Under the pieces are notes generated by a model. That model did no database searches and had not been told where the DNA came from. It was given only the letters and a program-made list of their open reading frames with translations. A DNA stretch of 64,000 bases from Escherichia coli (GTDB lineage: Bacteria > Pseudomonadota > Gammaproteobacteria > Enterobacterales > Enterobacteriaceae): the NCBI RefSeq assembly GCF_050920415.1, contig NZ_CP169309.1; one strand, 5' to 3'. Position 1 is the stretch's first letter, and every line of letters begins with the position of its first letter. The translations under genes were made by a program, and so were the position numbers. Shown here piece by piece: positions 30,415 through 60,107 of the stretch.

Positions 30415-31268
30415 GCACCATCCTGAAATGGGCGGGAAATAAAACCGCCATTATGTCCGAACTGAAAAAACACCTTCCTGCTGGCCCGCGACTGGTTGAA
30501 CCTTTCGCGGGTTCCTGTGCTGTGATGATGGAGACGGATTACCCCAGCTATCTGGTTGCGGATATTAATCCTGATTTAATCAACCTCTATAAAAAGGTTG
30601 CCGCTGATTGTGAATCGTTTATATCTCGCGCCAGAGTTTTATTTGAGATCGCAAACAGGGAGGTGGCTTATTACAACATAAGGCAGGAGTTTAATTACTC
30701 CACTGAAATTACTGATTTCATGAAAGCGGTATATTTCCTGTATCTCAATCGTCACGGTTACCGTGGTTTATGTCGCTATAACAAGAGCGGGCATTTCAAC
30801 ATTCCCTACGGTAATTATAAAAATCCGTATTTCCCTGAAAAAGAAATTCGCGCATTTGCAGAAAAAGCCCAGCGGGCAACGTTTATCTGCGCCAGCTTTG
30901 ATGAAACGCTGGCGATGTTGAAGGCGGGGGATGTGGTGTATTGCGATCCGCCGTATGACGGCACGTTTTCCGGTTATCACACTGACGGCTTCACTGAAGA
31001 TGACCAGTATCACCTGGCATCCGTTCTTGAACATCGGTCATCAGAAGGACATCCGGTCATTGTTTCTAACAGTGACACATCCCTGATCCGTTCGCTGTAT
31101 CGCAATTTTACTCACCACTACATCAAGGCAAAACGCAACATCGGTGTGGCAGCTGGCGAGGGTAAATCAGCAACAGAAATCATTGCTGTTTCCGGGCCGC
31201 GCTGCTGGGTGGGATTTGATTATTCGCGTGGCGTGGACAGTTCTGCCGTGTACGGAGTACGTGCATGA
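30411..31268 (+). CDS. dam: DNA adenine methyltransferase (Dam-type, N6-adenine)
   Basis: ORF from [38 protein letters not shown]... with catalytic DPPY motif (VYCDPPYDG); ATGA overlap with the preceding gene. Confidence 0.85.
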
Positions 31269-33679
31269 GTCATGCCGATATGAACAACTGCTGCGGCTTT
31301 AACGAGGCTACCGCAGCATTCTCATGGAACAGCCCGAAAAAGGCCATTAACCCTTATCTGGACCCGGCGGAAGTTGCGCCGGTTTCTGCGCTTTCAAACC
31401 TGATCACTCTGTACGCTGCCGATAACGAGCAGGAACAACTGCGCCGTGAGGCACTGAGTGATCAGGTCTGGGAGCGTTATTTCTTTAATGAATCCCGTGA
31501 TCCTGTCCAGCGCGAAATGGAGCAGGATAAGCTAATTAGCCGGGCAAAGCTGGCGCATGAGCAGCAGCGTTTTAATCCAGACATGGTCATTCTGGCGGAT
31601 GTCAACGCCCAGCCTTCCCATATCAGCAAGCCGCTGATGCAACGTATTAAATACTTCAGCAACCTGGGCAGGCCAAAGGCTTATTCCCGCTATTTGCGTG
31701 AGACGATTAAGCCATGCTTGGAACGACTGGAGCATGTACGCGACAGCCAGCTATCTGCATCTTTTCGTTTTATGGCAAGCCATGAAGGGCTGGACGGTCT
31801 GCTGATCCTGCCTGAAATGAGTCAGGATCAGGTGAAACGCCTGTCCACCCTTGTCGCTGCGCATATGAGCATGTGTCTTGATGCCGCTTGTGGTGATTTG
31901 TACGCCTCCGATGATGTTAAGCCGGAAGAAATCCGCAAGACATGGGAAAAGGTGGCAGCAGAAACCCTGCGACTGGATGTCATACCGCCTGCGTTTGAGC
32001 AACTCCGCCGGAAAAGAAACCGCCGCAAACCTGTGCCCTATGAACTCATTCCGGGTTCGCTGGCGCGTATGCTGTGCGCCGACTGGTGGTATCGGAAATT
32101 ATGGAAGATGCGTTGCGAATGGCGGGAAGAGCAGTTGCGTGCTGTCTGTCTGGTCAGCAAAAAAGCATCTCCCTATGTCAGCTATGAAGCCGTGATGCAT
32201 AAACGTGAGCAGCGCCGTAAGTCGCTGGAGTTTTTCCGTTCTCATGAACTGGTGAACGAAGACGGCGACACGCTGGACATGGAGGATGTGGTAAACGCCA
32301 GCAGCAGCAACCCTGCGCATCGCCGCAATGAGATGATGGCCTGTGTTAAAGGCCTGGAGCTTATCGCGGAAATACGCGGTGACTGCGCCGTTTTCTACAC
32401 CATCACCTGTCCGTCACGTTTCCATTCCACGCTAAATAACGGCAGGCCCAACCCGACCTGGACAAATGCGACGGTAAGACAAAGCAGTGATTATCTGGTT
32501 GGCATGTTTGCTGCATTTCGTAAGGCGATGCACAAAGCCGGATTGCGCTGGTATGGCGTGCGGGTGGCTGAGCCGCATCATGACGGTACAGTTCACTGGC
32601 ACCTGTTGTGTTTTATGCGCAAAAAAGATCGCCGCGCCATTACTGCTTTGTTGCGTAAGTTTGCCATTCGTGAAGACCGCGAGGAGCTGGGGAATAACAC
32701 GGGACCACGCTTTAAGTCTGAGTTGATTAACCCGCGCAAAGGAACGCCGACAAGCTACATCGCGAAATATATCAGTAAGAACATTGACGGGCGTGGTCTG
32801 GCTGGCGAGATCAGCAAGGAAACGGGTAAATCCCTGCGTGATAACGCTGAATACGTGAATGCCTGGGCGTCTCTGCATCGTGTTCAGCAATTCCGCTTCT
32901 TTGGCATTCCGGGGCGTCAGGCTTACCGTGAACTGCGATTGCTGGCTGGTCAGGCGGCAAGGCAACAGGGTGACAAAAAAGCAGGTGCGCCGGTACTGGA
33001 TAACCCGCGCCTTGATGCAATCCTGGCTGCTGCTGATGCTGGTTGTTTTGCCACCTACATCATGAAGCAGGGCGGCGTACTGGTTCCCCGTAAATATCAC
33101 CTCATCAGAACCGCTTATGAAATCAACGAAGAGCCAACCGCCTATGGCGATCACGGTATTCGTATTTATGGCATCTGGTCACCCATTGCAGAGGGCAAGA
33201 TCTGCACTCATGCAGTGAAGTGGAAAATGGTTCGTAAGGCCGTTGACATTCAGGAGGCGGCAGCCGACCAGGGCGCTTGCGCCCCTTGGACTCGTGGCAA
33301 TAACTGTCCCCTTGCTGAAAATTTGAACCAACAGGAGAAAGATAAATCAGCTGATGGGGGCCCCAGAACGGACTTTACCCGCATGGATGACAAGGAGTTG
33401 CACGATTACCTGCACAGTATGAACAAAAAGGGGCGCCGGGAACTGGCTGCAAGGTTACGTCTGGTGAAACCGAAACGGCGTAGAGACTACAAACAGCGAA
33501 TTACAGACCATCAACGACAGCAGCTCGTCTATGAACTGAAATCCAGAGGATTTGATGGCAGCGAGAAAGAGGTCGATTTACTCCTTCGCGGCGGCAGTAT
33601 TCCGTCAGGAGCAGGCCTGCGTATCTTCTATCGGAACCAGCGTTTGCAGGAAGATGATAAGTGGCGGAACCTGTATTAA
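31265..33679 (+). CDS. A: Replication initiation protein (P2 gpA-like rolling-circle endonuclease)
   Basis: 804-aa ORF in the gpA position of the early operon; size and context match P2 A / 186 A. Confidence 0.8.
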
Positions 33680-33774
33680 TTACGCTGGTTAACAATTCGT
33701 GCTCTTAATAATACCAGGCATATCAGGCTGATAAGCGTAAAAAAAACGTTTTACATCAGTAAGATTATTATATA

Positions 33775-33790
33775 CTGTAAATATAAACAG
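33775..33790. promoter_or_regulatory. LexA (SOS) box CTGTAAATATAAACAG
   Basis: Perfect CTGT-N8-ACAG palindrome 44 bp upstream of the 33834 ORF. Confidence 0.65.
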
Positions 33791-33833
33791 TGGTTATACA
33801 TACAGCATTGCGTGTGGTGTCATAGGAGGAAAG

Positions 33834-34022
33834 ATGCAGGACTATTTTTTGGAGTCTTTGAAGCTCCAGCGCATTGATTTTTTTCTTAAGCTTGTAGCGG
33901 CTAGTGAGTGTAGTGATGAAGAGAAGGGGCTGGCTCTGCAGTGGGTTTCTGAATTGACTGATGAACTCATGGCAAAAATCAGAAGCCACGAATACAACCG
34001 CTCAATGGATGTCATCAGCTGA
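33834..34022 (+). CDS. Small protein in Tum-like antirepressor position (62 aa)
   Basis: First ORF downstream of the LexA box; stop overlaps the RBS of the DinI-like gene. Confidence 0.45.
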   Translation: MQDYFLESLKLQRIDFFLKLVAASECSDEEKGLALQWVSELTDELMAKIRSHEYNRSMDVIS

Positions 34023-34032
34023 GGTGACTTTT

Positions 34033-34266
34033 ATGCGCATTGAAATAATGATCGATAAAGAGCAGAAGATTAGCCAGTCTACCCTGGACGCCCTTGAATC
34101 CGAGCTTTACCGCAATCTGCGCCCCCTGTATCCCAAAACGGTAATCCGTATCCGTAAAGGTAGCTCTAACGGTGTGGAACTGACCGGACTGCAACTGGAC
34201 GAAGAAAGAAAACAAGTGATGAAAATTATGCAGAAGGTGTGGGAAGACGACAGCTGGCTGTATTGA
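34033..34266 (+). CDS. DinI-like protein (Tum C-terminal-domain-like)
   Basis: 77-aa ORF MRIEIMIDKEQKISQSTLDALESELYRNLRPLYPKTVIRIRKGSSNGVELTGL...VWEDDSWLY resembles DinI (MRIEV...WESADDWF); GAGGTG RBS. Confidence 0.7.
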   Translation: MRIEIMIDKEQKISQSTLDALESELYRNLRPLYPKTVIRIRKGSSNGVELTGLQLDEERKQVMKIMQKVWEDDSWLY

Positions 34267-35249: not shown

Positions 35250-35374
35250 CGCGCGCTCATGGTTGAATTAATGAAATTATGGTGTTAAATAGGCTAGCTT
35301 TTTAAGTCGTGAATATTTGTCAACGCCAAGATTATTGGCCGTTTTTCGCCATTTTTAATGTCCGCTATTGGTCA

Positions 35375-36171
<797 letters not shown>

Positions 36172-36174
36172 AAC

Positions 36175-37338
36175 AGCTCCTCATAGGCACTCAACGGCCT
36201 GTGTTCCACCTGACTGACCTGCTGCCAGAGTGGGGCGTGATGCTCCGGCACGGTCTGCCAGCCGTATACAGCCGAACAGAGACGGTGCGATGCTACCTGT
36301 TGCTCATTACTGTAGATCCGCAGTTCATCATCCAGCGAGATCCGTATTGATACCGGCTGGCCACACAGGCTTTCCGGCACGCTGTAACGGTTCCCGCCAA
36401 CCTCGATATAGCCATCCCAGGAGACATGACGGATATCGAAGTAGCTGGTATCGAAGTCCGTACCTGGCAGCGCCTGCAGATGCACCTGTTCCTGCGTGAA
36501 GCGCTGTTCCGGTGTCTGCCTGAACTGGCGAAGTCCCGCCTGTCGGCAACGTCAGCCATCCACTGCTCCAGTAGCTGATTAACATGGGCGAAGCTGTCGA
36601 ACCGGCGGTACCGGACGAAGAAGTTTTCCTTGAGGTATTTCACCATCCGTTCCACCTTACCTTTGGTTCTGGCCCTTCGTGGACGGCAGGCCCGTGGCAG
36701 GAAGCCATAGTGATGGCCAGCAGCAGGAACCCGGAGTTGAACACCACCTTCCCGTTGTTATTTTTCAGCACTGCGGCTTTCTGGTTATCGACCAGCACGG
36801 TTTTCACGCTGCCGCCGAAGTAGCGAAAGGCGCGGACCAGTGACTCATAGGTATGTTCAGCATCCTGCTTTGGTGCCGCGAAGACATGGAAGCGACGTGA
36901 GAACCCCAGCGTATTAACCGCGAAGTTAACCCTGCATCGTTGCCCGGCAACCTCAGCCTCAACTTCTCCCCAGTCATGCTGTAGCTGGTAACCGGGCTGA
37001 GTTTCGAAGCGAACCGTTTTCTTCGATGGCCGCATCTTACGTTTGGGCTGGATGTAGTAACGCAACATGGAACGGCCACCGGTATAACCCATCGCTTTGA
37101 TTTCCGCCAGGATGACCTCGCCGTTCCAGACATTCTCAGCCAGACGCATGTCGATATAGTCCATGAACGGCTTGAGTTTGGCCATTTTGTGGCGTGTTTT
37201 TCTGGCCGGAGGTTCCGGGTATTTCAGGTACCGTCTGACAGTCCGCTCAGAGCAACCAACCTGAGTGGCAATATCAACAATATACGCACCTTGCTGGCGC
37301 ATTTGCTTTATCATGTAAAAGTCCTCTCTGCTCAGCAT
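36175..37338 (-). pseudogene. istA: IS21-family transposase IstA, frameshifted
   Basis: N-terminal 232-aa fragment (36640..37338, HTH region MIKQMRQQGAYIVDIATQVGCSERTVRRYL) followed by C-terminal pieces in other frames (36168..36655). Confidence 0.7.
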
Positions 37339-37485
37339 GAGTGTTCCCTTTGTGGTGTAGGAACCTTAAGGAAACAACATGTTGGGTGGAGCGGACAATC
37401 CAAATGGTGAATTACTGTCTTATATCATTGGCGCTGACATATTCAATTTTTCAACTCATTTTTTTCATAGGGAGGAGTAATTGAC

Positions 37486-49632: not shown

Positions 49633-51026
49633 GCACAAAATTTTATACCCTGCTGACGGATATTGGCGCGGCGAAACTTGCCAGCGCCGCCGCGCTCGGT
49701 GTGCCGCTAAAAATTACCCATATGGCGGTGGGCGATGGCGGCGGAACATTGCCAACGCCGGACGCCAAGCAGACAGCATTGGTAAATGAGAAACGCCGGG
49801 CTGCGCTGAATATGCTCTATATCGACCCGCAGAACAGCAGCCAGATTATTGCTGAACAGGTGATCCCTGAAAACGAGGGCGGTTGGTGGATACGTGAAGT
49901 GGGCCTGTTTGATGAGTCCGGGGCATTGATTGCCGTGGGCAACTGCCCGGAAAGCTATAAGCCGCAACTGGCTGAAGGCAGCGGGCGTACCCAGACCGTG
50001 CGCATGGTGCTGATTACCAGCAGCACGGACAATATCACCCTGAAAATCGACCCTGCCGTAGTGCTGGCAACCCGCAAGTATGTGGATGACAAGGTACTGG
50101 AGCTGAAGGTGTACGTGGATGATCAGATGGCAAAACATCTTGCCGCACCGGACCCGCATTCACAGTATGCACCCAAAGAAAGTCCGACGTTTACCGGGAC
50201 ACCAAAAGCGCCAACTCCAGCGGCAGGGAATAACACCACGCAGGTTGCGACCACCGCGTTTGTTCAGGCGGCACTGACGGCTCTTATTAATGGTGCGCCA
50301 GCCACGCTGGACACGCTGAAAGAAATAGCCGCAGCCATTAACAATGATCCGAATTTCAGTACCACCATTAACAATGCGCTGGCACTGAAAGCGCCGTTGT
50401 CGAGTCCGGCACTCACCGGAACGCCAACAGCCCCCACTGCTGCACAGTCGGTCAACAATACACAGATTGCCACCACGGCTTTTGTGAAATCGGCGATTGC
50501 AGCAATGGTAGGTTCTGCACCTGCGGCACTGGATACACTGAACGAACTGGCGTCGGCGTTGGGGAATGATCCGAACTTTGCCACGACAATGCTTAATGCG
50601 CTGGCAGGTAAACAACCGCTGGACAATACGCTGACTAATTTGAGTGGAAAGGATGTCGCTGGTCTTCTCGCATACCTTGGTTTGGGGGAATTGGCTCTGG
50701 CTGGCGCAACAACCGGCGCTATGTTGGTGAATGGGTATGTAGCAATTCCATTAATTATTTCTGGCGTTCGGAGACCACTTATTATCCAGTGGGGAGTGGG
50801 GCAGTTTGGGGGAAGTCTGGGGGATGATGCGGGATATTTAAACAATTTCCCTTTCGCTTTTCCGTCGGCGTGCTACGTGATGGTTGCCAGCCACGTGGGG
50901 CATACACCTTCGGGTGCCGGAATACTATCTGCTTCCGCAATCACAAAAAGCGGCTTTCGTGGTTTTTCCAGCGTAGTGACTGCCGCAAATCCTGTATCGG
51001 GCTGTTATGTTGCTATAGGAGGGTGA
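49629..51026 (+). CDS. H: Tail fibre protein (gpH-like), C-terminal part encoded within invertible segment
   Basis: 465-aa ORF; conserved N-terminal tail-fibre region, crossover site at 50665-50690 inside the gene. Confidence 0.85.
   Translation: MSTKFYTLLTDIGAAKLASAAALGVPLKITHMAVGDGGGTLPTPDAKQTALVNEKRRAALNMLYIDPQNSSQIIAEQVIPENEGGWWIREVGLFDESGALIAVGNCPESYKPQLAEGSGRTQTVRMVLITSSTDNITLKIDPAVVLATRKYVDDKVLELKVYVDDQMAKHLAAPDPHSQYAPKESPTFTGTPKAPTPAAGNNTTQVATTAFVQAALTALINGAPATLDTLKEIAAAINNDPNFSTTINNALALKAPLSSPALTGTPTAPTAAQSVNNTQIATTAFVKSAIAAMVGSAPAALDTLNELASALGNDPNFATTMLNALAGKQPLDNTLTNLSGKDVAGLLAYLGLGELALAGATTGAMLVNGYVAIPLIISGVRRPLIIQWGVGQFGGSLGDDAGYLNNFPFAFPSACYVMVASHVGHTPSGAGILSASAITKSGFRGFSSVVTAANPVSGCYVAIGG
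50665..50690. promoter_or_regulatory. Left recombination site of invertible segment (gix/pix-like)
   Basis: TTCTCGCATACCTTGGTTTGGGGGAA matches the reverse complement of the right site in about 20 of 26 positions. Confidence 0.55.
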
Positions 51027-51027
51027 T

Positions 51028-51462
51028 GTGTTTTTTAGTCCATCTTTAAATATTTTTGTGAATCCTGCGCTTAAGGATGACTACATCAATGTAAATTCAT
51101 GGCCAGATGATGCTGTTGAAGTTGATGAGCAGGTGTATATTGAGTTTTCCGGATTACCGCCGAAAGGAAAAATCCGTATCGCTGGGGAAAATGGTTTTCC
51201 TGCATGGTCTGAAATTCCACCACCAACGCATGAGGAACAGATTGCCGCAGCCGAATTGAAAAAACAGCAATTGATTAATCAGTCCAACGAATATATGAAT
51301 ACCAAGCAATGGCCTGGTAAAGCGGCTATTGGTCGTCTGAAAGGTGAGGAACTGGCGCAATATAATTTGTGGCTGGATTATCTGGACGCACTGGAACTGG
51401 TTGATACCTCCAGTGCTCCAGATATTGAATGGCCTACGCCTCCGGCAGTTCAGGCCAGATGA
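51028..51462 (+). CDS. G: Tail fibre assembly chaperone (gpG/U-like), current orientation
   Basis: 144-aa ORF directly after H. Confidence 0.7.
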   Translation: MFFSPSLNIFVNPALKDDYINVNSWPDDAVEVDEQVYIEFSGLPPKGKIRIAGENGFPAWSEIPPPTHEEQIAAAELKKQQLINQSNEYMNTKQWPGKAAIGRLKGEELAQYNLWLDYLDALELVDTSSAPDIEWPTPPAVQAR

Positions 51463-52027
51463 CATCCGGCGCGGTGCTCGTATCTGTTGCCGTCACCGCG
51501 TCAATGTAATCAAGCACGGCGTTAAGCCGGGTGGTTTCTGCCTGCGTCAGCTTCCGCCCGGCCTGTAATTTCAGCTGAATCAGACTGATGGAAGCCATTG
51601 CAGCATCAATCAGTGACTGGCGCTGTGCTTCTGCCGCTTCTACTGCGGCACCGTGTTGTGCCTCAGTATCTGTCACCCATTTCTCACCATCCCATTTATC
51701 GTATGGCGTTAACGGTGAAAGCGTGACATAACCGTCTTTGATGGCACCGATATAATCCACTGTAACAGCAGCACCATTTTCGATTGAGTAAACAGTCTCA
51801 TTGCGATGGTCTTCTTCATGGCTCCATCCCTTACCTGTAAATACTGCCACTCTTCCCGGAATGTTTTCGCCAGGGTCAATACCAGTTGAACAGGCGGGCA
51901 TACTTACGCCAGTATTAATATATTCATCAGACCAGCCCGTATACTCAGATGTTTCAGCATCATAATAAAAACAACGCATATCACCCGGCACTGTAGCCAG
52001 CCCATTTTCATCAAAAACAGGTTTCAT
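51434..52027 (-). CDS. Alternative tail fibre assembly chaperone (inverted-orientation copy)
   Basis: 197-aa minus-strand ORF inside the invertible segment, downstream of the alternative fibre tip. Confidence 0.65.
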   Translation of the reverse strand: MKPVFDENGLATVPGDMRCFYYDAETSEYTGWSDEYINTGVSMPACSTGIDPGENIPGRVAVFTGKGWSHEEDHRNETVYSIENGAAVTVDYIGAIKDGYVTLSPLTPYDKWDGEKWVTDTEAQHGAAVEAAEAQRQSLIDAAMASISLIQLKLQAGRKLTQAETTRLNAVLDYIDAVTATDTSTAPDVIWPELPEA

Positions 52028-52533
52028 TATGCAGCCCTCACAATATAATTAAAGGCGATGTTACGTGGACGGTTTTCATTAGCTGTTGGCACGACACGAG
52101 AGGCGTCGAATCCAAGGTCATCGGTTTTGTCTATAGTAGTTGTGTTATTCGGCATTCTCGCTGATCGTGTTCCTGCATCGTAAAAAGCCCCTCTGATTGC
52201 ATCAAAAGACATACCGATCCCGCCATCTGCGAATCCCTCAATATTTCTTATTGCATCCCCCTGTGAAGATAATAATTGTCGCCCGGCATCCACTCCACGT
52301 CCGTCATCCCAGCCACGAATAAATTCACCGCGTAAATCAGGCAATTTATTTTTCGGATAAACCTTTGCCAGTTCCGGGTATTCTTCAGCAGAAAAAGCCG
52401 CACCGTTGCATTTCAGCCAGCCAGTAGGCGGTGTGGCTGAAGGCCACGGAACAGGCACACCAACGGGTAATGCTGAACCTTCTCCCAAACCAACGTTTAT
52501 GAAAATGCAGAGATAACGGCTAACTGGCATCAT
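52027..52533 (-). CDS. Alternative tail fibre C-terminal segment (expressed only after inversion)
   Basis: 168-aa minus-strand ORF that reads through the right crossover site; would fuse to the constant part of H after inversion. Confidence 0.6.
   Translation of the reverse strand: MMPVSRYLCIFINVGLGEGSALPVGVPVPWPSATPPTGWLKCNGAAFSAEEYPELAKVYPKNKLPDLRGEFIRGWDDGRGVDAGRQLLSSQGDAIRNIEGFADGGIGMSFDAIRGAFYDAGTRSARMPNNTTTIDKTDDLGFDASRVVPTANENRPRNIAFNYIVRAA
52480..52505. promoter_or_regulatory. Right recombination site of invertible segment (gix/pix-like)
   Basis: TTCTCCCAAACCAACGTTTATGAAAA, inverted relative to the left site. Confidence 0.55.
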
Positions 52534-52560
52534 CTCCGGTTTTTATTCAGGGGGATGATC

Positions 52561-53127
52561 ATGCTTATTGGCTATGTACGCGTGTCAACAAATGACCAGA
52601 ACACCGATTTGCAACGTAATGCACTGAACTGCGCGGGATGTGAGCGGATTTTTGAGGATAAAATCAGTGGCACTAAGTCCGACAGACCGGGGCTGAAAAA
52701 GCTGCTCAGGACACTATCGGCAGGAGACACGCTGGTTGTCTGGAAGCTGGACAGGTTGGGGCGCAGTATGCGGCATCTTGTTACGCTGATAGAGGAGTTG
52801 CGCCAGCGTGGTGTGAATTTCCGAAGCCTGACTGACAGTATTGATACCAGTACCCCAATGGGCCGTTTCTTTTTTCATGTCATGGGTGCCCTGGCTGAAA
52901 TGGAACGCGAACTGATAGTTGAACGTACCAGGGCAGGGCTGGCTGCAGCTCGTGCCAAAGGCAGAGTAGGTGGACGCCGTCCTAAGTTGACCACCGAACA
53001 GTGGGCACAGATTGGGCGTTTACTCGAGGCCGGAGAATCAAGACAGCGTATTGCACTGATTTTTGATGTGGGTGTTTCCACAATTTATAGAAAATTTCCG
53101 GCAAATAAGAGTAATGAATCCCCCTGA
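52561..53127 (+). CDS. pin: Site-specific DNA invertase (serine recombinase, Pin/Gin/Hin family)
   Basis: MLIGYVRVSTNDQNTDLQRNAL... with catalytic Ser (VRVSTNDQ) and C-terminal HTH; adjacent to invertible segment. Confidence 0.9.
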   Translation: MLIGYVRVSTNDQNTDLQRNALNCAGCERIFEDKISGTKSDRPGLKKLLRTLSAGDTLVVWKLDRLGRSMRHLVTLIEELRQRGVNFRSLTDSIDTSTPMGRFFFHVMGALAEMERELIVERTRAGLAAARAKGRVGGRRPKLTTEQWAQIGRLLEAGESRQRIALIFDVGVSTIYRKFPANKSNESP

Positions 53128-53269: not shown

Positions 53270-54442
53270 ATGGCTCAGGATTACCACCACGGGGTGCGCG
53301 TTGTTGAAGTCAACGAAGGCACCCGATCCATTACCACGGTGAGCACCGCCATCGTGGGCATGGTCTGCACGGGCGATGATGCCGATGCAAAAATGTTTCC
53401 TCTTAACAAACCTGTGCTGATCACTGATGTGCTGACTGCCAGCGGTAAAGCGGGTGAGTCCGGCACGCTGGCCCGTTCGCTGGATGCCATCGCTGACCAG
53501 GCAAAACCCGTGACCGTTGTTGTGCGTGTGCCGCAGGGTGAAACGGAAGAAGAAACCACGACCAATATCATCGGCGCAGTGACTGCTGAAGGTAAAAAAA
53601 CAGGCATGAAAGCTCTGTTATCTGCCCAGTCACAGCTCGGCGTTAAACCGCGCATTCTCGGCGTGCCAGGTCACGATAACAAAGCCGTTGCGACTGAGTT
53701 GCTGAGCGTGGCGCAAAGCCTGCGTGGGTTTGCTTACCTGTCAGCGTATGGCTGCAAGACGGTACAGGAGGCGATCACTTACCGTGAAAACTTCAGCCAG
53801 CGCGAAGGAATGCTGATCTGGCCCGACTTTACTGGCTGGGACACGGTGCTGAATGCCGAAGCAACGGCATATGCCACCGCCCGTGCACTTGGTCTGCGTG
53901 CCAAAATTGATGAGCAGACCGGGTGGCACAAAAGCCTGTCCAACGTGGGCGTGAACGGTGTCACCGGAATTTCTGCAGATGTGTTCTGGGATCTGCAGGA
54001 CCCGGCAACCGATGCAGGTCTGCTGAACCAGAACGACGTCACCACGCTTGTGCGTAAAGACGGTTTCCGCTTCTGGGGTTCCCGCTGTCTGAGCGATGAT
54101 CCGCTTTTTGCCTTCGAAAACTACACCCGCACGGCGCAGGTGCTGACGGACACAATGGCAGAAGCACACATGTGGGCGGTGGATAAACCGCTTAACCCGT
54201 CGCTGGCCCGCGACATTATCGAAGGTATCCGCGCCAAAATACGCAGCCTGGTCAGTCAGGGCTATCTCATTGGTGGTGATTGCTGGCTGGATGAGTCGGT
54301 GAACGACAAAGACACGCTGAAAGCCGGAAAACTCACCATCGACTATGACTACACGCCAGTGCCGCCACTTGAAAATCTGATGCTGCGCCAGCGCATCACC
54401 GATCAGTACCTGGTGAATTTCGCCAGCCAGGTCAGCGCGTAA
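53270..54442 (+). CDS. FI: Contractile tail sheath protein (P2 gpFI-like)
   Basis: 390-aa [38 protein letters not shown]... Confidence 0.9.
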
Positions 54443-54451
54443 GGGGACAAC

Positions 54452-54967
54452 ATGGCTTTACCACGCAAATTAAAACATCTGAACCTGTTTAACGACGGGA
54501 ACAACTGGCAGGGGATCGTTGAGTCGCTGACGCTGCCGAAATTCACCCGCAAATATGAGAAGTATCGCGGCGGCGGAATGCCGGGTGCAGTGGATGTGGA
54601 TCTGGGGCTTGATGACAGTGCGCTGGACACAGAATTTTCCATTGGTGGTACTGAACTGCTGCTGTTTAAGCAGATGGGCAAAGCCACGGTAGATGGCATT
54701 CAGCTGCGCTTTACCGGCTCTATCCAGCGTGACGATACCGGGGAAGTGCAGGCCGTGGAGCTTGTGGTGCGTGGACGTCACAAAGAAGTGGATTCCGGCG
54801 AGTGGAAGACGGGCGAAAGCAACACCACCAAAGTGACCAGTACCAACAGCTACGCGAAGCTGACCATCAATGGTGAGGTGCTCTATGAAGTGGACCTTAT
54901 CAACATGGTGGAAATTGTGGACGGTGTGGACCTGATGGAAGCGCACCGCAACGCCCTCGGCCTCTGA
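54452..54967 (+). CDS. FII: Tail tube protein (P2 gpFII-like)
   Basis: 171-aa ORF after sheath gene. Confidence 0.9.
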   Translation: MALPRKLKHLNLFNDGNNWQGIVESLTLPKFTRKYEKYRGGGMPGAVDVDLGLDDSALDTEFSIGGTELLLFKQMGKATVDGIQLRFTGSIQRDDTGEVQAVELVVRGRHKEVDSGEWKTGESNTTKVTSTNSYAKLTINGEVLYEVDLINMVEIVDGVDLMEAHRNALGL

Positions 54968-55021
54968 TGTATCTGAACGGCGCGGGATACCGCGCCAGAA
55001 CCCAATTTACAGGACAGCAAA

Positions 55022-55324
55022 ATGAGCGATAAGCAGACTGAAAAGACTATTCAACTGGATACCCCCATCAAGCGCGGTAAAACAGAAATCACCGAAATTG
55101 TGCTGCGTAAACCGCAGTCCGGTGCGCTGCGCGGTACACGCCTGCAGGCCATTATGGATATGGATGTGAACGCGATGATGACCGTGATCCCCCGTATCTC
55201 CAGTCCGGCACTGACTGCACAGGAAATTGCAGAGATGGACCCGGCAGATCTCACTGCCATGTCGGTTGAGGTTGTCACTTTTTTGTTGAAGAAGTCGGTG
55301 CTTGCCGGTTTACCGACAGCCTGA
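55022..55324 (+). CDS. E: Tail assembly chaperone gpE (zero-frame product)
   Basis: 100-aa ORF upstream of tape measure; contains slippery site near 3' end. Confidence 0.8.
   Translation: MSDKQTEKTIQLDTPIKRGKTEITEIVLRKPQSGALRGTRLQAIMDMDVNAMMTVIPRISSPALTAQEIAEMDPADLTAMSVEVVTFLLKKSVLAGLPTA
55279..55285 (+). promoter_or_regulatory. Programmed -1 ribosomal frameshift slippery heptamer T_TTT_TTG (gpE to gpE+E')
   Basis: TTTTTTG in phase with the E frame; the -1 frame stays open to a TGA at 55456-55458, giving an E+E' product spanning 55022..55458. Confidence 0.6.
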
Positions 55325-55450
55325 CGGTTGACGATCTGGTGGCTGATATCGCCACCATCTTTCACTGGCCGCCATCCGTTACTGACGTTATGCCGCTGAC
55401 CGAAGTGCTGGAATGGCGGTATAAAGCGATTCAGAGAAGCGGGGCCAACG

Positions 55451-58400
55451 ATGAGTGATAACAACCTGCGGCTGCAGGTCATTCTTAATGCGGTTGACAA
55501 ACTCACCCGCCCATTCCGTGTTGCACAGGCCAGTTCGAAAGAGCTGGCTGGCGCAATTCAGAATACCCGAAACAGCCTCAAAGAACTGAATAAGCAGGCT
55601 GGCAGAATTGATGAATTTCGCAAGACGCGCTCGCAACTAGCCATAACAGCCAACAACCTGAACGCAGCCCGCGAAGAGGCGGCAAAACTCGCCACACAAT
55701 TTGCTGCCACTAACAGGCCAACCGCCGCGCAGGCAAAGTTATTCAGTCAGGCCAAAACACGAGTACAGGAACTTCAGCAGACCTATAACGGCTTGTTGGG
55801 GGCGGTCCAGAGACAACGTCAGGCACTTAAAGAATCAGGGATTGATACCAGACAACTCAGTAGTGCCCAGCGAGAACTTAAGAAAAATGCTGAAGAAACA
55901 AGGCAGGCACTGGAGGGCCAGCAAAAAGCACTTAAACGTCTGGGTGAACAACAGTCACGGATGAACGCTGCCAGAGAACAATACTCAAGACGGCTTGAAG
56001 TGCGCGATCGCATCGCAGGAGCCGGAGCCACTACCACGGCTGCAGGGCTGGCAATGGGTGCGCCAGTGATGGCAGCAGTAAAAAGCTATACCAGCATGGA
56101 AGATGCCATGAAAGGTGTGGCAAAGCAGGTCAATGGTCTGCGTGATGATAATGGCAACCGCACTGCGCGTTTTTACGAAATGCAGGATGCCATCAAGGCT
56201 GCCAGCGAACAGTTGCCGATGGAAAACGGTGCTGTGGACTTTGCCGCACTGGTTGAAGGTGGTGCGCGCATGAACGTCGCAAATCCTGACGACAGCTGGG
56301 AAGACCAGAAACGTGACCTGCTGGCCTTCGCCAGCACGGCAGCAAAGGCGGCAACAGCCTTTGAGCTGCCAGCGGATGAACTGTCAGAAAGTCTGGGGAA
56401 AATCGCCCAGCTCTACAAAATCCCTACCCGCAATATTGAACAGCTCGGTGATGCGCTGAACTATCTGGATGATAACGCCATGTCGAAAGGGTCAGACATC
56501 ATTGATGTCATGCAACGCCTGGGCGGTGTGGCAGATCGTCTGGATTATCGTAAAGCGGCGGCGCTGGGTTCCACCTTCCTGACACTGGGCGCTGCGCCGG
56601 AGGTTGCTGCCAGTGCAGCAAACGCGATGGTGCGTGAATTGTCCATTGCCACCATGCAAAGTAAGAGTTTCTTTGAAGGGATGAATCTGCTGAAACTCAA
56701 TCCTGAAGTGATTGAAAAGCAGATGACGAAGGATGCGATGGGAACTATCCAGCGTGTGCTGGAGAAGGTGAACGCACTGCCGCAGGACAAGCGTCTGTCT
56801 GCCATGACCATGTTGTTTGGTAAAGAGTTTGGTGATGATGCAGCGAAACTGGCAAACAACCTTCCGGAACTGCAGCGCCAGCTAAAACTGACAGCGGGCA
56901 ATGATGCGCTCGGTTCCATGCAGAAAGAATCCGACATCAACAAAGACTCACTTTCCGCTCAGTGGTTGCTGGTCAAAACCGGAGCGCAGAACACCTTCAG
57001 CAGCCTGGGCGAAACGCTGCGCCAGCCGCTGATGGATATTCTGTACACGGTGAAAAGCATCACGGGGGCGTTGCGCCGCTGGGTGGAAGCTAACCCGGAA
57101 CTGACAGGCACACTGATGAAAGTAGCGGCTGTTGTGGCTGCGGTTACCGTAGGCCTCGGCACCTTAGCGGTGGCGCTGGCTGCAGTGCTGGGGCCGCTGG
57201 CAGTCATCCGTCTGGGATTCTCTGTGCTGGGTATCAAAACGTTACCTTCCGTTACGGCAGCAGTAACACGAACCAGCAGCGCGTTGTCCTGGTTAGCTGG
57301 CGCTCCACTGGCACTGCTGCGACGCGGGCTTGCTTCATCGGGCAACGCAGCGGGTTTACTTACTGCGCCGTTGTCGTCTTTGCGCCGCACCGCATCACTG
57401 ACGGGGAATGTCCTGAAAACTGTAGCAGGTGTGCCGGTTGCACTGTTGCGGTCTGGATTATCCGGTTTACGTGCGGTTGCTGTGATGTTTATGAATCCAC
57501 TGGCAGCACTACGCGGTGGACTGGCTGCCGCAGGCGCGGTGCTGCGTGTGCTGGCATCCGATCCGCTGGCGATGCTGCGCGTTGCCCTGTATGCCGTATC
57601 TGGTCTGTTAGGTGCTCTGCTCAGTCCGATAGGTCTTGTGGTTACTGCACTGGCGGGCGTGGCGCTGGTTGTCTGGAAATACTGGCAACCCATCACCGCA
57701 TTTCTCGGTGGCGTGGTGGAAGGATTCAAAGCGGCGGCAGGTCCCATCAGTGCTGCATTCGAACCGCTTAAGCCCGTGTTCCAGTGGATTGGCGACAAAG
57801 TACAGGCGTTGTGGGGCTGGTTTACTGATCTGCTGACGCCTGTTAAGTCGACCTCTGCCGAACTGCAGAGCGCAGCGGCAATGGGGCGACGATTCGGGGA
57901 GGCACTGGCGGAAGGGCTGAATATGGTCATGCATCCGTTGGACTCCCTGAAATCCGGCGTTTCCTGGTTGCTGGAGAAACTCGGTATTGTCAGTAAAGAG
58001 GCTGCAAAGGCGAAACTGCCGGAAAGCGTGACGCGTCAGCAACCTGCGACGGTGAATGCAGACGGTAAAGTGATGATGCCATCGGGTGGTTTTCCGTCAT
58101 GGGGATATGGCTTTGCGGGGATGTATGACAGCGGCGGCTATATCCCGCGCGGGCAGTTCGGCATTGTCGGTGAAAACGGGCCTGAAATTGTCAACGGTCC
58201 GGCAAACGTGACCAGTCGGAGAAATACAGCTGCACTGGCTGCCGTTGTTGCCGGAATGATGGGCGTTGCTGCCGCGCCTGCAGAGCTTCCGCCGTTACAT
58301 CCTTTGGCACTTCCCGCGAAAGGCGGCGAAGCGATGGTGAGTCGTGCAGCCACTGTGCCGCCCGCTCAACGGATTGAGGCACCGACGCAGATCATCATCC

Positions 58401-58528
58401 AGACGCAGCCAGGACAAAGTGCGCAGGATATTGCGCGGGAGGTGGCACGCCAGCTTGATGAACGTGAACGCAGGCTGAAGGCAAAAGCCAGGAGTAACTA
58501 CAGCGATCAGGGGGGATACGACGCATGA
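55451..58528 (+). CDS. T: Tail tape measure protein (P2 gpT-like)
   Basis: 1025-aa ORF with long coiled-coil N-terminal region and hydrophobic central segment. Confidence 0.9.
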   Translation: MSDNNLRLQVILNAVDKLTRPFRVAQASSKELAGAIQNTRNSLKELNKQAGRIDEFRKTRSQLAITANNLNAAREEAAKLATQFAATNRPTAAQAKLFSQAKTRVQELQQTYNGLLGAVQRQRQALKESGIDTRQLSSAQRELKKNAEETRQALEGQQKALKRLGEQQSRMNAAREQYSRRLEVRDRIAGAGATTTAAGLAMGAPVMAAVKSYTSMEDAMKGVAKQVNGLRDDNGNRTARFYEMQDAIKAASEQLPMENGAVDFAALVEGGARMNVANPDDSWEDQKRDLLAFASTAAKAATAFELPADELSESLGKIAQLYKIPTRNIEQLGDALNYLDDNAMSKGSDIIDVMQRLGGVADRLDYRKAAALGSTFLTLGAAPEVAASAANAMVRELSIATMQSKSFFEGMNLLKLNPEVIEKQMTKDAMGTIQRVLEKVNALPQDKRLSAMTMLFGKEFGDDAAKLANNLPELQRQLKLTAGNDALGSMQKESDINKDSLSAQWLLVKTGAQNTFSSLGETLRQPLMDILYTVKSITGALRRWVEANPELTGTLMKVAAVVAAVTVGLGTLAVALAAVLGPLAVIRLGFSVLGIKTLPSVTAAVTRTSSALSWLAGAPLALLRRGLASSGNAAGLLTAPLSSLRRTASLTGNVLKTVAGVPVALLRSGLSGLRAVAVMFMNPLAALRGGLAAAGAVLRVLASDPLAMLRVALYAVSGLLGALLSPIGLVVTALAGVALVVWKYWQPITAFLGGVVEGFKAAAGPISAAFEPLKPVFQWIGDKVQALWGWFTDLLTPVKSTSAELQSAAAMGRRFGEALAEGLNMVMHPLDSLKSGVSWLLEKLGIVSKEAAKAKLPESVTRQQPATVNADGKVMMPSGGFPSWGYGFAGMYDSGGYIPRGQFGIVGENGPEIVNGPANVTSRRNTAALAAVVAGMMGVAAAPAELPPLHPLALPAKGGEAMVSRAATVPPAQRIEAPTQIIIQTQPGQSAQDIAREVARQLDERERRLKAKARSNYSDQGGYDA

Positions 58529-59010
58529 TGATGGTGCTGGGATTGTACGTGTTTATGCTGCGCACTGTGCCGTATCAGGAACTGCAGTATCAACGCAGCT
58601 GGCGACATGCGGCAAACAGCCGGGTCAACCGACGTCCGTCCACGCAGTTTCTGGGACCGGACAACGACATGCTGACGCTTTCTGGTGTTCTTATGCCGGA
58701 GATAACAGGCGGCAGGCTGTCGTTGCTGGTACTGGAGCAGATGGCAGAACAGGGGAAAGCATGGCCCCTGATTGAAGGCAGCGGCACGATTTACGGCATG
58801 TATGTGATTGAGGGACTGAATCAGACTAAAACGGAGTTTTTCCGCGACGGTATGCCGCGCCGGATTGAGTTCACCCTGTCGCTCAAACGGGTGGATGAAT
58901 CCCTGTCCGATATGTTCGGTGATCTCAGTGCGCAACTGAATAATCTGCAGGACACGGCAACGTCTGCCTTAAGCGATATCAGTAAAACGGTGGGAGGGCT
59001 GCTGTCGTGA
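58525..59010 (+). CDS. U: Tail protein (P2 gpU-like)
   Basis: 161-aa ORF overlapping T by 4 nt. Confidence 0.85.
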   Translation: MMMVLGLYVFMLRTVPYQELQYQRSWRHAANSRVNRRPSTQFLGPDNDMLTLSGVLMPEITGGRLSLLVLEQMAEQGKAWPLIEGSGTIYGMYVIEGLNQTKTEFFRDGMPRRIEFTLSLKRVDESLSDMFGDLSAQLNNLQDTATSALSDISKTVGGLLS

Positions 59011-60107
59011 ATTTCAGCTCTGAACTGCTTAACAAAGGCAACAAAACTCCCGCATTCAGCATCAGTATTGAGGGCAGGGATATCACCACTGTGCTGGATA
59101 ACCGCCTGATGAGTTTGACGCTGACGGACAATCGGGGCTTTGAAGCAGACCAGCTTGATCTGGAGCTGGACGACGCCGACGGAAAAATCGTGCTGCCGCG
59201 CCGTGGTGCGGTTATTACGCTGGCGCTGGGCTGGAAGGGGCAGCCGCTTTTCCCGAAAGGGGCATTCACGGTGGACGAGATTGAACACACTGGCGCACCG
59301 GACCGCCTGACTATCCGGGCGCGAAGTGCTGATTTTCGTGAAACGCTGAATACCCGCCGTGAAAAGTCGTGGCACAAGACCACCGTTGGGGAAGTGGTGA
59401 AGGAAATAGCTGCACGGCACAAACTGAAGATGGCATTGGGTAAAGACCTGTCAGATAAACCCGTGGAACATATAGACCAGACCAATGAGAGTGACGGCAG
59501 TTTTCTGATGCGACTGGCGCGCCAGTACGGTGCTATTGCGTCGGTGAAAAATGGCAATCTGTTATTCATCCGGCAGGGACAGGGCAAAAGCGCCAGCGGT
59601 AAACCACTGCCGGTGATCACTATCACGCGTAAGGACGGCGACAGTCACCGCTTTACCCTGGCAGATCGCGGAGCCTATACGGGCGTCATTGCCAGCTGGT
59701 TGCATACCCGCGAACCCGCGAAGAAAGAAAGCACCACGGTGAAGCGTAAGCGCAGAACTAAGAAGCAGAAGAAAGAGCCGGAAGCGAAGCAGGGCGATTA
59801 TCTGGTGGGGACGGATGAAAACGTGCTGGTACTTAATCGCACTTATGCCAACCGGAGCAACGCCGAACGAGCGGCGAAAATGCAGTGGGAACGCCTGCAA
59901 CGCGGTGTTGCGTCATTCTCGCTACAACTGGCGGAAGGTCGGGCAGATCTCTACACGGAAATGCCTGTGAAGGTCAGTGGCTTTAAACAGCCAATAGATG
60001 ATGCGGAATGGACCATTACGACTCTGACACATACCGTCAGCCCGGATAACGGTTTTACGACCAGTATTGAACTTGAAGTGAAAATTGGTGATCTTGAAAT
60101 GGAATAA
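59007..60107 (+). CDS. D: Tail protein / late control protein (P2 gpD-like)
   Basis: 366-aa ORF overlapping U by 4 nt. Confidence 0.9.
   Translation: MNFSSELLNKGNKTPAFSISIEGRDITTVLDNRLMSLTLTDNRGFEADQLDLELDDADGKIVLPRRGAVITLALGWKGQPLFPKGAFTVDEIEHTGAPDRLTIRARSADFRETLNTRREKSWHKTTVGEVVKEIAARHKLKMALGKDLSDKPVEHIDQTNESDGSFLMRLARQYGAIASVKNGNLLFIRQGQGKSASGKPLPVITITRKDGDSHRFTLADRGAYTGVIASWLHTREPAKKESTTVKRKRRTKKQKKEPEAKQGDYLVGTDENVLVLNRTYANRSNAERAAKMQWERLQRGVASFSLQLAEGRADLYTEMPVKVSGFKQPIDDAEWTITTLTHTVSPDNGFTTSIELEVKIGDLEME

What the first reader, a model, noticed from the sequence alone, without database searches (positions are those of the whole stretch)
55279..55458. Conserved programmed -1 frameshift (gpE to gpE+E') upstream of tape measure gene
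Slippery heptamer T_TTT_TTG in phase with gpE, with the -1 frame open to 55458 and overlapping the tape-measure start, as in the P2 E/E' tail chaperone pair. Confirms an intact tail assembly module.
Basis: partly seen in the sequence, partly recalled or inferred. Interest (0 to 1): 0.3.

Follow-up and report, generated by a model that had tools for sequence, protein, structure and literature searches.

The report
P2-type tail chaperone frameshift signal

Summary
A 100-aa gpE-like gene (55022-55324, Pfam Phage_TAC_7) carries TTTTTTG at 55279-55285 in the phase T_TTT_TTG. The -1 frame is closed until 55269. It then runs open from the heptamer for 57 codons to TGA at 55456-58, overlapping the tape-measure ATG at 55451 (ATGAGTGA).

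A heptamer plus an open frame is not rare in this window: 19 of 96 in-phase heptamers have an equally long open -1 frame. Homology decides the case:
- The -1 product matches Pfam Phage_P2_GpE (E = 2.6e-18).
- The heptamer has the same sequence, phase and aligned position as the annotated P2 E/E+E' frameshift site.
- An in-phase slippery heptamer followed by a conserved 51-71-codon -1 extension occurs in all 19 relatives examined.

The DNA is 100% identical to Escherichia phage Cartapus, a Fels-2/P2-like prophage, and about 1000 E. coli genomes hold it. No 3' stimulatory structure is conserved.

The public annotation of a separate 39-aa "GpE family" gene starting at GTG 55339 is most likely an artefact.

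"Confirms an intact tail module" is overstated but consistent with the data. Verdict: already known, low interest.

The parts
55022..55324 (+). gpE-like tail assembly chaperone gene (frame 0, 100 aa)
   Evidence: ORF. PF10109 Phage_TAC_7, E = 1e-18, 67.5 bits. phrog_103 'tail protein', E = 2e-42. Annotated 'tail assembly protein' in Cartapus and LF82.
55279..55285 (+). Slippery heptamer T_TTT_TTG, in phase with gpE (P-site codon UUU 55280-82, A-site codon UUG 55283-85)
   Evidence: Sequence. Identical heptamer and phase in P2 at L004 679-685, next to the annotated 'site of -1 translational frameshift'. TTTTTTG is present in 13 of 19 relatives, and the other 6 have another in-phase slippery heptamer.
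55285..55458 (+). E' extension in the -1 frame: 57 sense codons (55285-55455) plus TGA 55456-58. E+E' = join(55022..55285, 55285..55458), 145 aa
   Evidence: Translation. PF06528 Phage_P2_GpE, E = 2.6e-18. phrog_1756 covers fusion residues 84-145 across the junction. Polymorphisms in 55325-55450 are 7 synonymous to 5 nonsynonymous in this frame, against 2 to 10 in each other frame, and none makes a stop in this frame.
55267..55269 (+). TGA that closes the -1 frame just upstream; the -1 frame opens only 3 codons before the heptamer
   Evidence: The -1 frame is likewise open for only 5 codons upstream of the slip point in P2, FSL SP-004 and Midge.
55339..55458 (+). 39-aa 'GpE family phage tail protein' ORF from GTG, as annotated in public records; most likely an annotation artefact and simply the C-terminal part of E+E'
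   Evidence: Separate CDS in Cartapus, RE-2010, SEN8 and SopEPhi and LF82 RefSeq WP_000763311.1. Weak anti-SD pairing upstream (-2.5 kcal/mol, against -7.0 for T). 5 of 17 relatives have no start codon there.
55451..58528 (+). Tape measure gene (gpT-like, 1025 aa); its ATG overlaps the E' stop (ATGAGTGA)
   Evidence: PF10145 PhageMin_Tail. P2 has the same overlap as ATGAGTAA.
54452..54967 (+). Tail tube gene (gpFII-like), immediately upstream of E
   Evidence: PF04985 Phage_tube, E = 9e-60.
53270..54442 (+). Tail sheath gene (gpFI-like), first gene of the FI-FII-E-T-U-D block
   Evidence: PF04984, PF17482 and PF22671.
58525..60107 (+). gpU-like (58525-59010) and gpD-like (59007-60107) tail genes completing the block
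   Evidence: PF06995 Phage_P2_GpU and PF05954 Phage_GPD.

Best explanation
This is the programmed -1 ribosomal frameshift site of the gpE / gpE+E' tail assembly chaperone pair of a P2-like (Fels-2/Cartapus-type, Peduoviridae) prophage.

Most ribosomes translate gpE in frame 0 and stop at 55322-24, giving 100 aa. A minority slip back one base while tRNA-Phe (UUU, P site) and tRNA-Leu (UUG, A site) sit on U_UUU_UUG. They re-pair with UUU_UUU and continue at GUU (55285) in the -1 frame to TGA 55456-58. The product is a 145-aa E+E' protein with the same N-terminal 87-88 residues and a different 57-residue C-terminal domain.

The junction residue is Leu if both tRNAs slip together. It is Phe if the A-site tRNA enters directly in the -1 frame.

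By analogy with lambda G/GT, the shared E domain binds the tape-measure protein made from the next gene. The rarer E' domain recruits the tube protein, so a fixed E to E+E' ratio is set by the slip frequency. Neither protein ends up in the virion.

Shown here: the sequence anatomy, the homology and the conservation. Inferred from P2 and lambda: that the shift really occurs, its efficiency (roughly 2-3 times lambda's low level, according to PMC5009743), and the chaperone roles.
For: - Anatomy at the stated coordinates.
- Frame 0 matches PF10109 and the -1 frame matches PF06528, both far above the gathering scores.
- P2 itself (NC_001895) has TTTTTTG in the same phase. E+E' is annotated there as a joined CDS with a '-1 translational frameshift' site, and the E' stop overlaps the T start. 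Lynch et al. 2010 (PMC3091744) state that P2 shifts at TTTTTTG to give E (91 aa) and E+E' (142 aa).
- The fusion aligns with P2 E+E' at 49% identity, with the junction 'FF' columns aligned.
- tblastn of the fusion finds 424 phage records. Every row listed with 77% or more query coverage is split into two pieces, as expected for two reading frames.
- All 19 loci examined, from about 15 genera, have an in-phase slippery heptamer 5-23 codons before the E stop and a 51-71-codon -1 extension with the conserved ADIAxIFHW...WRE.A..RSG motif.
- In-phase heptamers outnumber the other phases 19 to 2 to 1.
- Some relatives use G_GGA_AAG, A_AAT_TTT or C_CCT_TTC. These can slip at the tRNA level but are not homopolymer runs.
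- 5 of 17 relatives have no ATG/GTG/TTG in the -1 frame before the conserved motif. Most of the others have no Shine-Dalgarno pairing.
- The -1 frame is conserved at the protein level upstream of the internal GTG (VAE.G...L[ST]VDDL).
- An AlphaFold model of the fusion is confident (pLDDT 89.4, pTM 0.79), with one helix (residues 74-92) running through the junction.
- Polymorphism among 40 sequence versions fits purifying selection on the -1 frame downstream of the E stop.
Against: - No experiment exists for this exact sequence. Cartapus, LF82 RefSeq and the Fels-2-group records annotate E' as a separate small gene.
- No 3' stimulatory structure was found: z = -0.36 for the first 60 nt, and no consensus pairs in 13 relatives.
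- The only 5' Shine-Dalgarno-like element lies 6-7 nt from the heptamer, outside the 9-14 nt range given for -1 stimulators. The efficiency may therefore be modest and cannot be predicted.
- The polymorphism test in the E'-only region is weak on its own (7 of 12 at third positions, binomial P about 0.07).
- The primary P2 paper (Christie et al. 2002, PMC135442) could not be read here.
Confidence: 0.93

Rival explanations
1. E' is an independent small gene: ribosomes initiate at GTG 55339 and make a free 39-aa 'GpE family' protein, as public annotation implies, with no recoding.
For: This is how Cartapus, RE-2010, SEN8, SopEPhi, Dobby and RefSeq/PGAP annotate it. The Pfam model PF06528 (37 positions) begins exactly at this codon. 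Many relatives have ATG or GTG at the homologous position.
Against: - Anti-SD pairing upstream of GTG 55339 is only -2.5 kcal/mol, against -7.0 for the T start. It is -3.2 or weaker in all relatives but one.
- RSA1, Mannheimia 587AP1, Vibrio MAR, 2F_1 and ST16-OXA48phi5.4 have no start codon in the -1 frame between the heptamer and the conserved motif.
- The 18 codons between the slip site and the GTG are open in every relative and conserved as protein.
- phrog_1756 and the AlphaFold helix span the junction.
- P2's E+E' is annotated as a frameshift fusion.
Confidence: 0.03
2. The fusion arises mainly by transcriptional slippage: RNA polymerase adds an extra U in the T6 run, and standard translation of that mRNA gives E+E' (with an F-F junction).
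For: An extra U gives exactly the same frame change. The T run is length-unstable at the DNA or sequencing level: about 10 public assemblies carry T7, so the fused ORF is called directly. Transcriptional slippage is used elsewhere for length-ruler systems (PMC5009743).
Against: - The conserved feature in relatives is the X_XXY_YYZ phase, not a homopolymer. G_GGA_AAG, A_AAT_TTT and C_CCT_TTC relatives have runs of only 3-4 bases.
- In-phase heptamers dominate 19 to 2 to 1, and phase is irrelevant for polymerase slippage.
- From general knowledge, a run of six T is shorter than the runs that give efficient slippage by E. coli RNA polymerase.
- A minor contribution is not excluded.
Confidence: 0.03
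3. Chance co-occurrence: a T-rich heptamer and an open alternative frame with no function.
For: About 20% of in-phase heptamers in mechanical ORFs of this window have an equally long open -1 frame.
Against: - Pfam E = 2.6e-18 for the -1 product.
- Conservation of the arrangement in all 19 relatives examined, down to 33-52% protein identity for the more distant ones.
- None of the substitutions seen among the 40 sequence versions of the 80 IMG/VR loci creates a stop in the -1 frame.
Confidence: 0.01

Closest known systems
Bacteriophage P2 gpE / gpE+E' (FETUD tail operon; Christie et al. 2002, as cited in PMC3091744 and PMC5009743; NC_001895 features P2p25/P2p26)
   Same: - Same heptamer TTTTTTG, same phase and same aligned position.
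- 57-codon -1 extension in both.
- Same Pfam families.
- Same gene order FII-E-E'-T, and the E' stop overlaps the T start.
- No 3' hairpin.
   Different: - 49% protein identity only.
- E is 100 aa against 91 aa: the frame-0 tail after the slip is 13 codons against 7.
- The internal codon is GTG, not ATG.
- T is 1025 aa against 815 aa (2448-nt CDS).
- The frameshift is demonstrated for P2 and only inferred here.
Fels-2 group / Elveevirus prophages (Escherichia phage Cartapus OV696611, Salmonella phages RE-2010, SEN8, SopEPhi)
   Same: 100% nucleotide identity to Cartapus over 54900-55600, and 84% to the Salmonella phages, with identical heptamer and frames. Integrated at ssrA like this group.
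   Different: Nothing in the E/E' region. Elsewhere, the window's prophage has a 94%-identical early region, a different tail-fibre tip and an IS21-like insertion. These records annotate E' as a separate CDS.
Lambda gpG / gpGT and the conserved tail-assembly-chaperone frameshift of long-tailed phages (Levin 1993; Xu, Hendrix and Duda 2004, 2013, 2014, as summarised in PMC5009743)
   Same: Two overlapping ORFs between the major tail (tube) gene and the tape-measure gene. [quoted passage not shown] The fixed ratio of short to long product is needed for tail assembly, and neither protein is in the virion.
   Different: The heptamer is G_GGA_AAG in lambda. There is no detectable sequence similarity: only TAC_7 and P2_GpE were hit. 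P2-type efficiency is reported as 2-3 times higher. This is a myovirus with a sheath.
E. coli dnaX and IS3-family -1 frameshift cassettes
   Same: Tandem-slippage X_XXY_YYZ heptamer ending in G. An IS2 copy with A_AAA_AAG is present in the same window at 19434.
   Different: Those cassettes use a 5' Shine-Dalgarno at 9-14 nt and/or a 3' stem-loop. Here no 3' structure is conserved, and the SD-like GAGGT is only 6 nt upstream.

Membership tests
P2-type gpE / gpE+E' tail assembly chaperone pair | Frame-0 product belongs to the gpE chaperone family (Pfam PF10109 Phage_TAC_7) | tested here: met
   67.5 bits against a gathering score of 25, residues 9-88.
P2-type gpE / gpE+E' tail assembly chaperone pair | -1 frame extension belongs to the E' family (Pfam PF06528 Phage_P2_GpE) | tested here: met
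   65.6 bits against 23, fusion residues 107-143.
P2-type gpE / gpE+E' tail assembly chaperone pair | In-phase slippery heptamer near the 3' end of E at the position homologous to P2's annotated shift site | tested here: met
   T_TTT_TTG at 55279-85. P2 has the same at L004 679-685. The junction columns align.
P2-type gpE / gpE+E' tail assembly chaperone pair | Located between the tail tube gene (FII) and the tape-measure gene (T), with E' ending at or overlapping the T start | tested here: met
   FII 54452-54967, T 55451-58528, overlap ATGAGTGA. P2 has ATGAGTAA.
P2-type gpE / gpE+E' tail assembly chaperone pair | Both E and the frameshift fusion E+E' are actually synthesised, and both are essential for tail assembly | not testable with these tools
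   This needs protein detection or genetics. It is known only for P2, through the NC_001895 annotation 'essential tail protein' and the literature cited.
Lambda G/GT-type conserved tail chaperone frameshift (functional class) | Overlapping ORF pair between the major tail and tape-measure genes, joined by a -1 slip near the end of the first ORF | tested here: met
Lambda G/GT-type conserved tail chaperone frameshift (functional class) | Sequence or fold homology to lambda gpG/gpT themselves | tested here: not met
   No Pfam family other than TAC_7 and P2_GpE at E <= 0.01. No PDB sequence hit or fold hit. BFVD gives only weak matches to proteins named 'tape measure/tail assembly chaperone' (E = 5e-3 and weaker). 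It works like G/GT but is not shown to be a homologue.
dnaX/IS-type stimulated -1 frameshift cassette | 3' stem-loop or pseudoknot 5-9 nt downstream of the heptamer | tested here: not met
   Folding z = -0.36 (window) and -0.01 (P2) for the first 60 nt. RNAalifold gave 0 pairs in 13 relatives. The 5-pair mini-hairpin of the enteric relatives is broken in the window sequence.
dnaX/IS-type stimulated -1 frameshift cassette | 5' Shine-Dalgarno-like element 9-14 nt upstream of the shift site | tested here: not met
   The best anti-SD match is GAGGT at 55268-72, only 6 nt from the heptamer (4 nt in P2). The range is taken from PMC5009743.

The most novel reading that the evidence does not exclude
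The Shine-Dalgarno-like element just upstream of the heptamer may be a conserved modulator of slip efficiency at an unusually short spacing. The element is GAGGT at 55268-72, with AAGGTGG in P2 and GAGGTG(G) in RE-2010, ST11-VIM1phi8.4 and RSA1. It is the strongest anti-SD match in the E gene (no stronger background window) in 7 of 17 loci. The spacing is 4-7 nt, shorter than the 9-14 nt described for -1 stimulators. If real, it would tune the E to E+E' ratio in P2-like phages. The alternative, and more likely, reading is that it is a by-product of the conserved (E/K)-V codons.
Probability: 0.1. Interest if true: 0.3.

Novelty: already known. Interest (0 to 1): 0.08.

Why it matters
The scientific value is small. 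This is a textbook recoding signal in a prophage whose sequence is already public: Cartapus and about 1000 E. coli genomes.

The practical value lies in annotation. RefSeq/PGAP and most phage records call a free-standing 39-aa 'GpE family phage tail protein' from GTG 55339 and miss the 145-aa E+E' fusion. The evidence here says the real product is join(55022..55285, 55285..55458).

An intact heptamer and an open E' frame are also a useful, though not sufficient, marker that a P2-like prophage can still build tails.

Tried and rejected
- NCBIfam scan of E and of the fusion: no family hit.
- Search for a 3' stimulatory RNA structure, nothing conserved:
  - Single-sequence folds of 60-142 nt.
  - RNAalifold on 13 relatives.
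  - RNAalifold on 6 enteric relatives.
  - RNAalifold on the region 40-120 nt downstream.
  - The low z-scores of the longer folds (-2.6 for the window, -3.3 for P2) did not correspond to any conserved structure in RNAalifold (-0.5 kcal/mol, 4 weak pairs). My reading is that the local pairing reflects the near-palindromic Ala-Asp-Ile-Ala codons (GCN GAT ATC GCN).
  - A 6-bp hairpin at 55294-55317, 8 nt after the heptamer, shows one compensatory U-A to C-G change in ST11-VIM1phi8.4. It is absent in P2, ENT90 and FSL SP-004, so it is not taken as a stimulator.
- 5' SD-like element as a canonical stimulator: the spacing is too short.
- PDB sequence search and Foldseek search against the PDB: no solved relative.
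- The search for related loci with gpE returned only loci with 100% identical E protein. The synonymous-only pattern inside E is therefore circular, and only the E'-only region was used for the selection test.
- The primary P2 paper (PMC135442) is not held.
- Other long -1 frames behind in-phase heptamers in the window were checked. They are an IS2 frameshift (19434), a spurious ORF inside the gpA gene (32159), and ordinary gene overlaps or antisense frames.
Full report
**Observation**

The region was read directly and the ORFs listed.
- A 100-aa ORF runs from ATG 55022 to TGA 55322-24.
- TTTTTTG lies at 55279-55285. Since (55279-55022) mod 3 = 2, the first T is a third codon position and the phase is ACT_TTT_TTG, that is T_TTT_TTG.
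- The three frame translations show that the -1 frame is closed by TGA at 55267-69. It opens at 55270, only three codons before the heptamer, and stays open to TGA 55456-58: 57 sense codons after the slip.
- The 1025-aa tape-measure ORF starts at ATG 55451, so the E' stop and the T start overlap as ATGAGTGA.

**Is it more than chance?**

The bare pattern is not. In this window 96 in-phase X_XXY_YYZ heptamers occur in mechanical ORFs of 100 aa or more on both strands, and 19 of them are followed by at least 57 open -1 codons. Most of those are overlaps with a real gene in another frame or on the other strand.

The support comes from homology.
- Frame 0 matches Pfam PF10109 (Phage_TAC_7, 'tail assembly chaperone proteins E, or 41 or 14') at 67.5 bits.
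- The conceptual fusion additionally matches PF06528 (Phage_P2_GpE) at 65.6 bits, E = 2.6e-18, in its -1-frame part.
- PHROGs gives phrog_103 for the E part and phrog_1756 for residues 84-145, across the junction.

**What it is**

The 701 bases around the site are 100% identical to Escherichia phage Cartapus (Peduoviridae, Elveevirus), the P2/Fels-2-like prophage 4 of E. coli LF82. They are 84% identical to Salmonella phages SopEPhi, SEN8 and RE-2010. 998 of 5426 complete E. coli genomes hold the segment.

The neighbours are the sheath (FI), the tube (FII), then E, T, U and D, all with full-length Pfam matches. This is the P2 FETUD arrangement.

In P2 itself (NC_001895):
- E is 91 aa.
- E+E' is annotated as a two-piece joined CDS with a 'site of -1 translational frameshift'.
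- The sequence shows GGT_TTT_TTG, the same heptamer in the same phase.
- A 57-codon -1 extension ends in ATGAGTAA over the T start.

Lynch et al. 2010 (PMC3091744) state that P2 shifts -1 at TTTTTTG to give E (91 aa) and E+E' (142 aa), and that no hairpin follows the site. Atkins et al. 2016 (PMC5009743) summarise the lambda G/GT paradigm and say that P2-type efficiency is 2-3 times higher than lambda's. The primary paper (Christie et al. 2002) is not in the library.

**Comparative test**

I fetched 18 further loci from about 15 genera and scanned them.
- Every one has an in-phase slippery heptamer 5-23 codons before the E stop.
- Every one has a -1 extension of 51-71 codons carrying the motif ADIAxIFHW...WRE.A..RSG.
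- TTTTTTG occurs in 13 of the 19 loci, window included. The others have T_TTT_TTT, T_TTT_TTC (two loci), G_GGA_AAG, A_AAT_TTT and C_CCT_TTC.
- In the last 25 codons of E in 17 non-redundant loci, heptamers are in phase 19 times, against 2 and 1 in the other phases.
- tblastn of the fusion finds 424 phage records. The near-full-length matches are always split into two pieces.
- The 16-sequence alignment of conceptual fusions (A1) aligns the junction and shows conservation on both sides of it. The conservation includes the 18 residues between the slip site and the internal GTG/ATG (VAE.G....L[ST]VDDL in enteric phages, P[DE]RVED in the beta-proteobacterial and pseudomonad phages).
- An AlphaFold2 model built on A1 is confident (pLDDT 89.4, pTM 0.79) and places one helix, residues 74-92, straight through the junction.
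- No solved structure resembles it by sequence or fold. In BFVD the best matches are E-sized proteins (E = 1e-6), with weaker matches to proteins named 'tape measure chaperone'.

**Rival 1: independent initiation**

Public records (Cartapus, RE-2010, SEN8, SopEPhi, Dobby, LF82 RefSeq) annotate a separate 39-aa CDS from GTG 55339, named 'GpE family phage tail protein'. The Pfam model starts exactly there, presumably because it was built from such calls.

Against this:
- The 20 nt upstream pair with the anti-SD at only -2.5 kcal/mol, against -7.0 for T.
- In relatives the homologous start has -3.2 kcal/mol or weaker, with one exception.
- Five relatives (RSA1, Mannheimia 587AP1, Vibrio MAR, 2F_1, ST16-OXA48phi5.4) have no start codon at all between the heptamer and the motif.

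I regard the 39-aa gene as an annotation artefact.

**Rival 2: transcriptional slippage on the T6 run**

An extra U would give the same frame. But what is conserved in relatives is the codon phase and the X_XXY_YYZ form, including non-homopolymeric heptamers. That fits tRNA re-pairing, not polymerase slippage. A minor contribution cannot be excluded.

The run is length-unstable in public data. The exact 145-aa fusion (F-F junction) is on record in about 10 assemblies, all of which carry T7. These are probably homopolymer errors.

**Stimulators**

- The first 60 nt after the heptamer fold no better than shuffles (z = -0.36; P2 -0.01).
- RNAalifold finds no pairs in 13 relatives.
- It finds only a 5-pair mini-hairpin in the enteric relatives, and that hairpin is broken in the window sequence.
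- Nothing is conserved further downstream.
- Upstream, GAGGT (55268-72) is the best anti-SD match in the whole E gene, and similar elements recur in P2 and others. The spacing, however, is 4-7 nt, and the review gives 9-14 nt for -1 stimulation. The element also coincides with conserved (E/K)-V codons.

I keep this as a low-probability lead.

**Population data**

Eighty IMG/VR loci with identical E protein comprise 40 nucleotide versions.
- Inside E the synonymous-only pattern is circular, because the loci were selected on E.
- In the E'-only stretch 55325-55450 the 12 substitutions are 7 synonymous to 5 nonsynonymous in the -1 frame, against 2 to 10 in each other frame.
- Stops appear only in the other frames.
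- One locus has TTTTTTA, which is still slippery.

**Mechanism**

Part of this is shown and part is inferred.

Shown: the anatomy, the family membership and the phase-specific conservation.

Inferred from P2 and lambda:
- A minority of ribosomes slip -1 on U_UUU_UUG, with tRNA-Phe in the P site and tRNA-Leu in the A site.
- They yield a 145-aa E+E', join(55022..55285, 55285..55458).
- The junction is F-L-V for tandem slippage, or F-F-V if the A-site tRNA pairs directly in the -1 frame.
- The majority terminate as 100-aa E.
- The E domain coats the tape-measure protein and E' recruits the tube protein.
- The ratio is fixed by the slip frequency.

**'Intact tail module'**

Window 52479-61071 matches Cartapus 14871-23463 at 99.88% with no gaps, so FI through ogr keep the Cartapus frames. 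Cartapus yields nuclease-protected genomes at about 3e5 per mL from LF82, but no virions were seen (PMC9928086). Intactness is plausible, not confirmed.

The window's prophage is not LF82's. Its early region is 94% identical, its integrase 87%, its tail-fibre tip differs, and an IS21-like element sits next to cos.

**Verdict**

The feature is the known P2-type E/E+E' frameshift in a known prophage. Interest is low. The only practical point is that standard annotation misses the fusion product.

Noticed in passing
window 19180-20345: IS2-like (IS3-family) insertion sequence. An orfA-like ORF (19180-19482) carries an in-phase A_AAA_AAG at 19434, and the -1 frame continues as a 301-aa transposase ORF (19440-20345). 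This is the classic IS3-family -1 frameshift.
   Followed up: partly
window 20330-24945: AIDA/pertactin-type autotransporter split into two frames. The passenger ORF is 20330-24229 (six PF16168 repeats plus PF03212). The beta-barrel ORF is 24235-24945 (PF03797). The frame break lies near a G run around 24160-24170. The 5' end abuts the IS2 and lacks a signal peptide, so this is probably a disrupted pseudogene or an assembly indel.
   Followed up: partly
window ~25100-61071; tmRNA 61027-61389 (-): The whole P2/Fels-2-like prophage (about 36 kb) is integrated at the 3' end of ssrA, with an smpB-sized ORF beyond it (61604-62086). Compared with Cartapus it is mosaic. The late genes are 99.9% identical, the early region (28569-34260) 94% and the integrase 87%. 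A 506-aa ORF with no Pfam hit (25283-26803, - strand) sits next to int where Cartapus has a RES-domain gene.
   Followed up: partly
window 35317-37435: IS21-like element (IstA with an rve domain at 36640-37338, IstB-like pieces at 35375-36171, both broken into several ORFs). It is inserted about 55 bp from the putative cos site, between cos and the DUF4145/portal genes, and is absent from Cartapus. Cartapus positions 112-119 are duplicated at the two junctions, suggesting an 8-bp target duplication.
   Followed up: partly
window 50690-53127: Host-range module. The tail-fibre C-terminus and assembly genes differ from Cartapus over 50690-52479. Inverted collar-domain (52027-52533, -) and tail-fibre-assembly (51434-52027, -) ORFs lie next to a Gin/Hin-type DNA invertase (52555-53127). 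This looks like an invertible tail-fibre segment.
   Followed up: no
window 55268-55272: Shine-Dalgarno-like GAGGT 6 nt upstream of the slippery heptamer. Equivalents are AAGGTGG in P2 and GAGGTG(G) in RE-2010, ST11-VIM1phi8.4 and RSA1. It is the strongest anti-SD match within the E gene in 7 of 17 loci. The spacing is shorter than the 9-14 nt known for -1 stimulators, and it may only reflect conserved (E/K)-V codons.
   Followed up: partly
L102-L108 positions ~858-866 (homologous to window 55279-55285): About 10 public assemblies (six Logan runs shown and GCA_050483605.1) carry T7 instead of T6 at the slip site. The 145-aa fusion is therefore called as a single ORF there, with no separate E. 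This is likely a homopolymer sequencing error, but real length variation is not excluded.
   Followed up: partly
window 55285 (one of 80 IMG/VR loci): One close relative has G>A at 55285, turning T_TTT_TTG into T_TTT_TTA. The change is synonymous in E and V>I in E', and the heptamer remains slippery.
   Followed up: no
window 55339-55458: RefSeq/PGAP (WP_000763311.1, 'GpE family phage tail protein') and many phage records annotate the C-terminal 39 codons of E' as an independent gene. The joined E+E' CDS is annotated only in a minority of records (P2, KS14, Smp131, Milagro, Midge).
   Followed up: yes
window 55294-55317: A 6-bp hairpin (GUCGGU...ACCGAC) 8 nt downstream of the heptamer, with one compensatory U-A to C-G change in Klebsiella phage ST11-VIM1phi8.4. 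It is not conserved in P2, ENT90 or FSL SP-004, and it is not significant against shuffles.
   Followed up: partly
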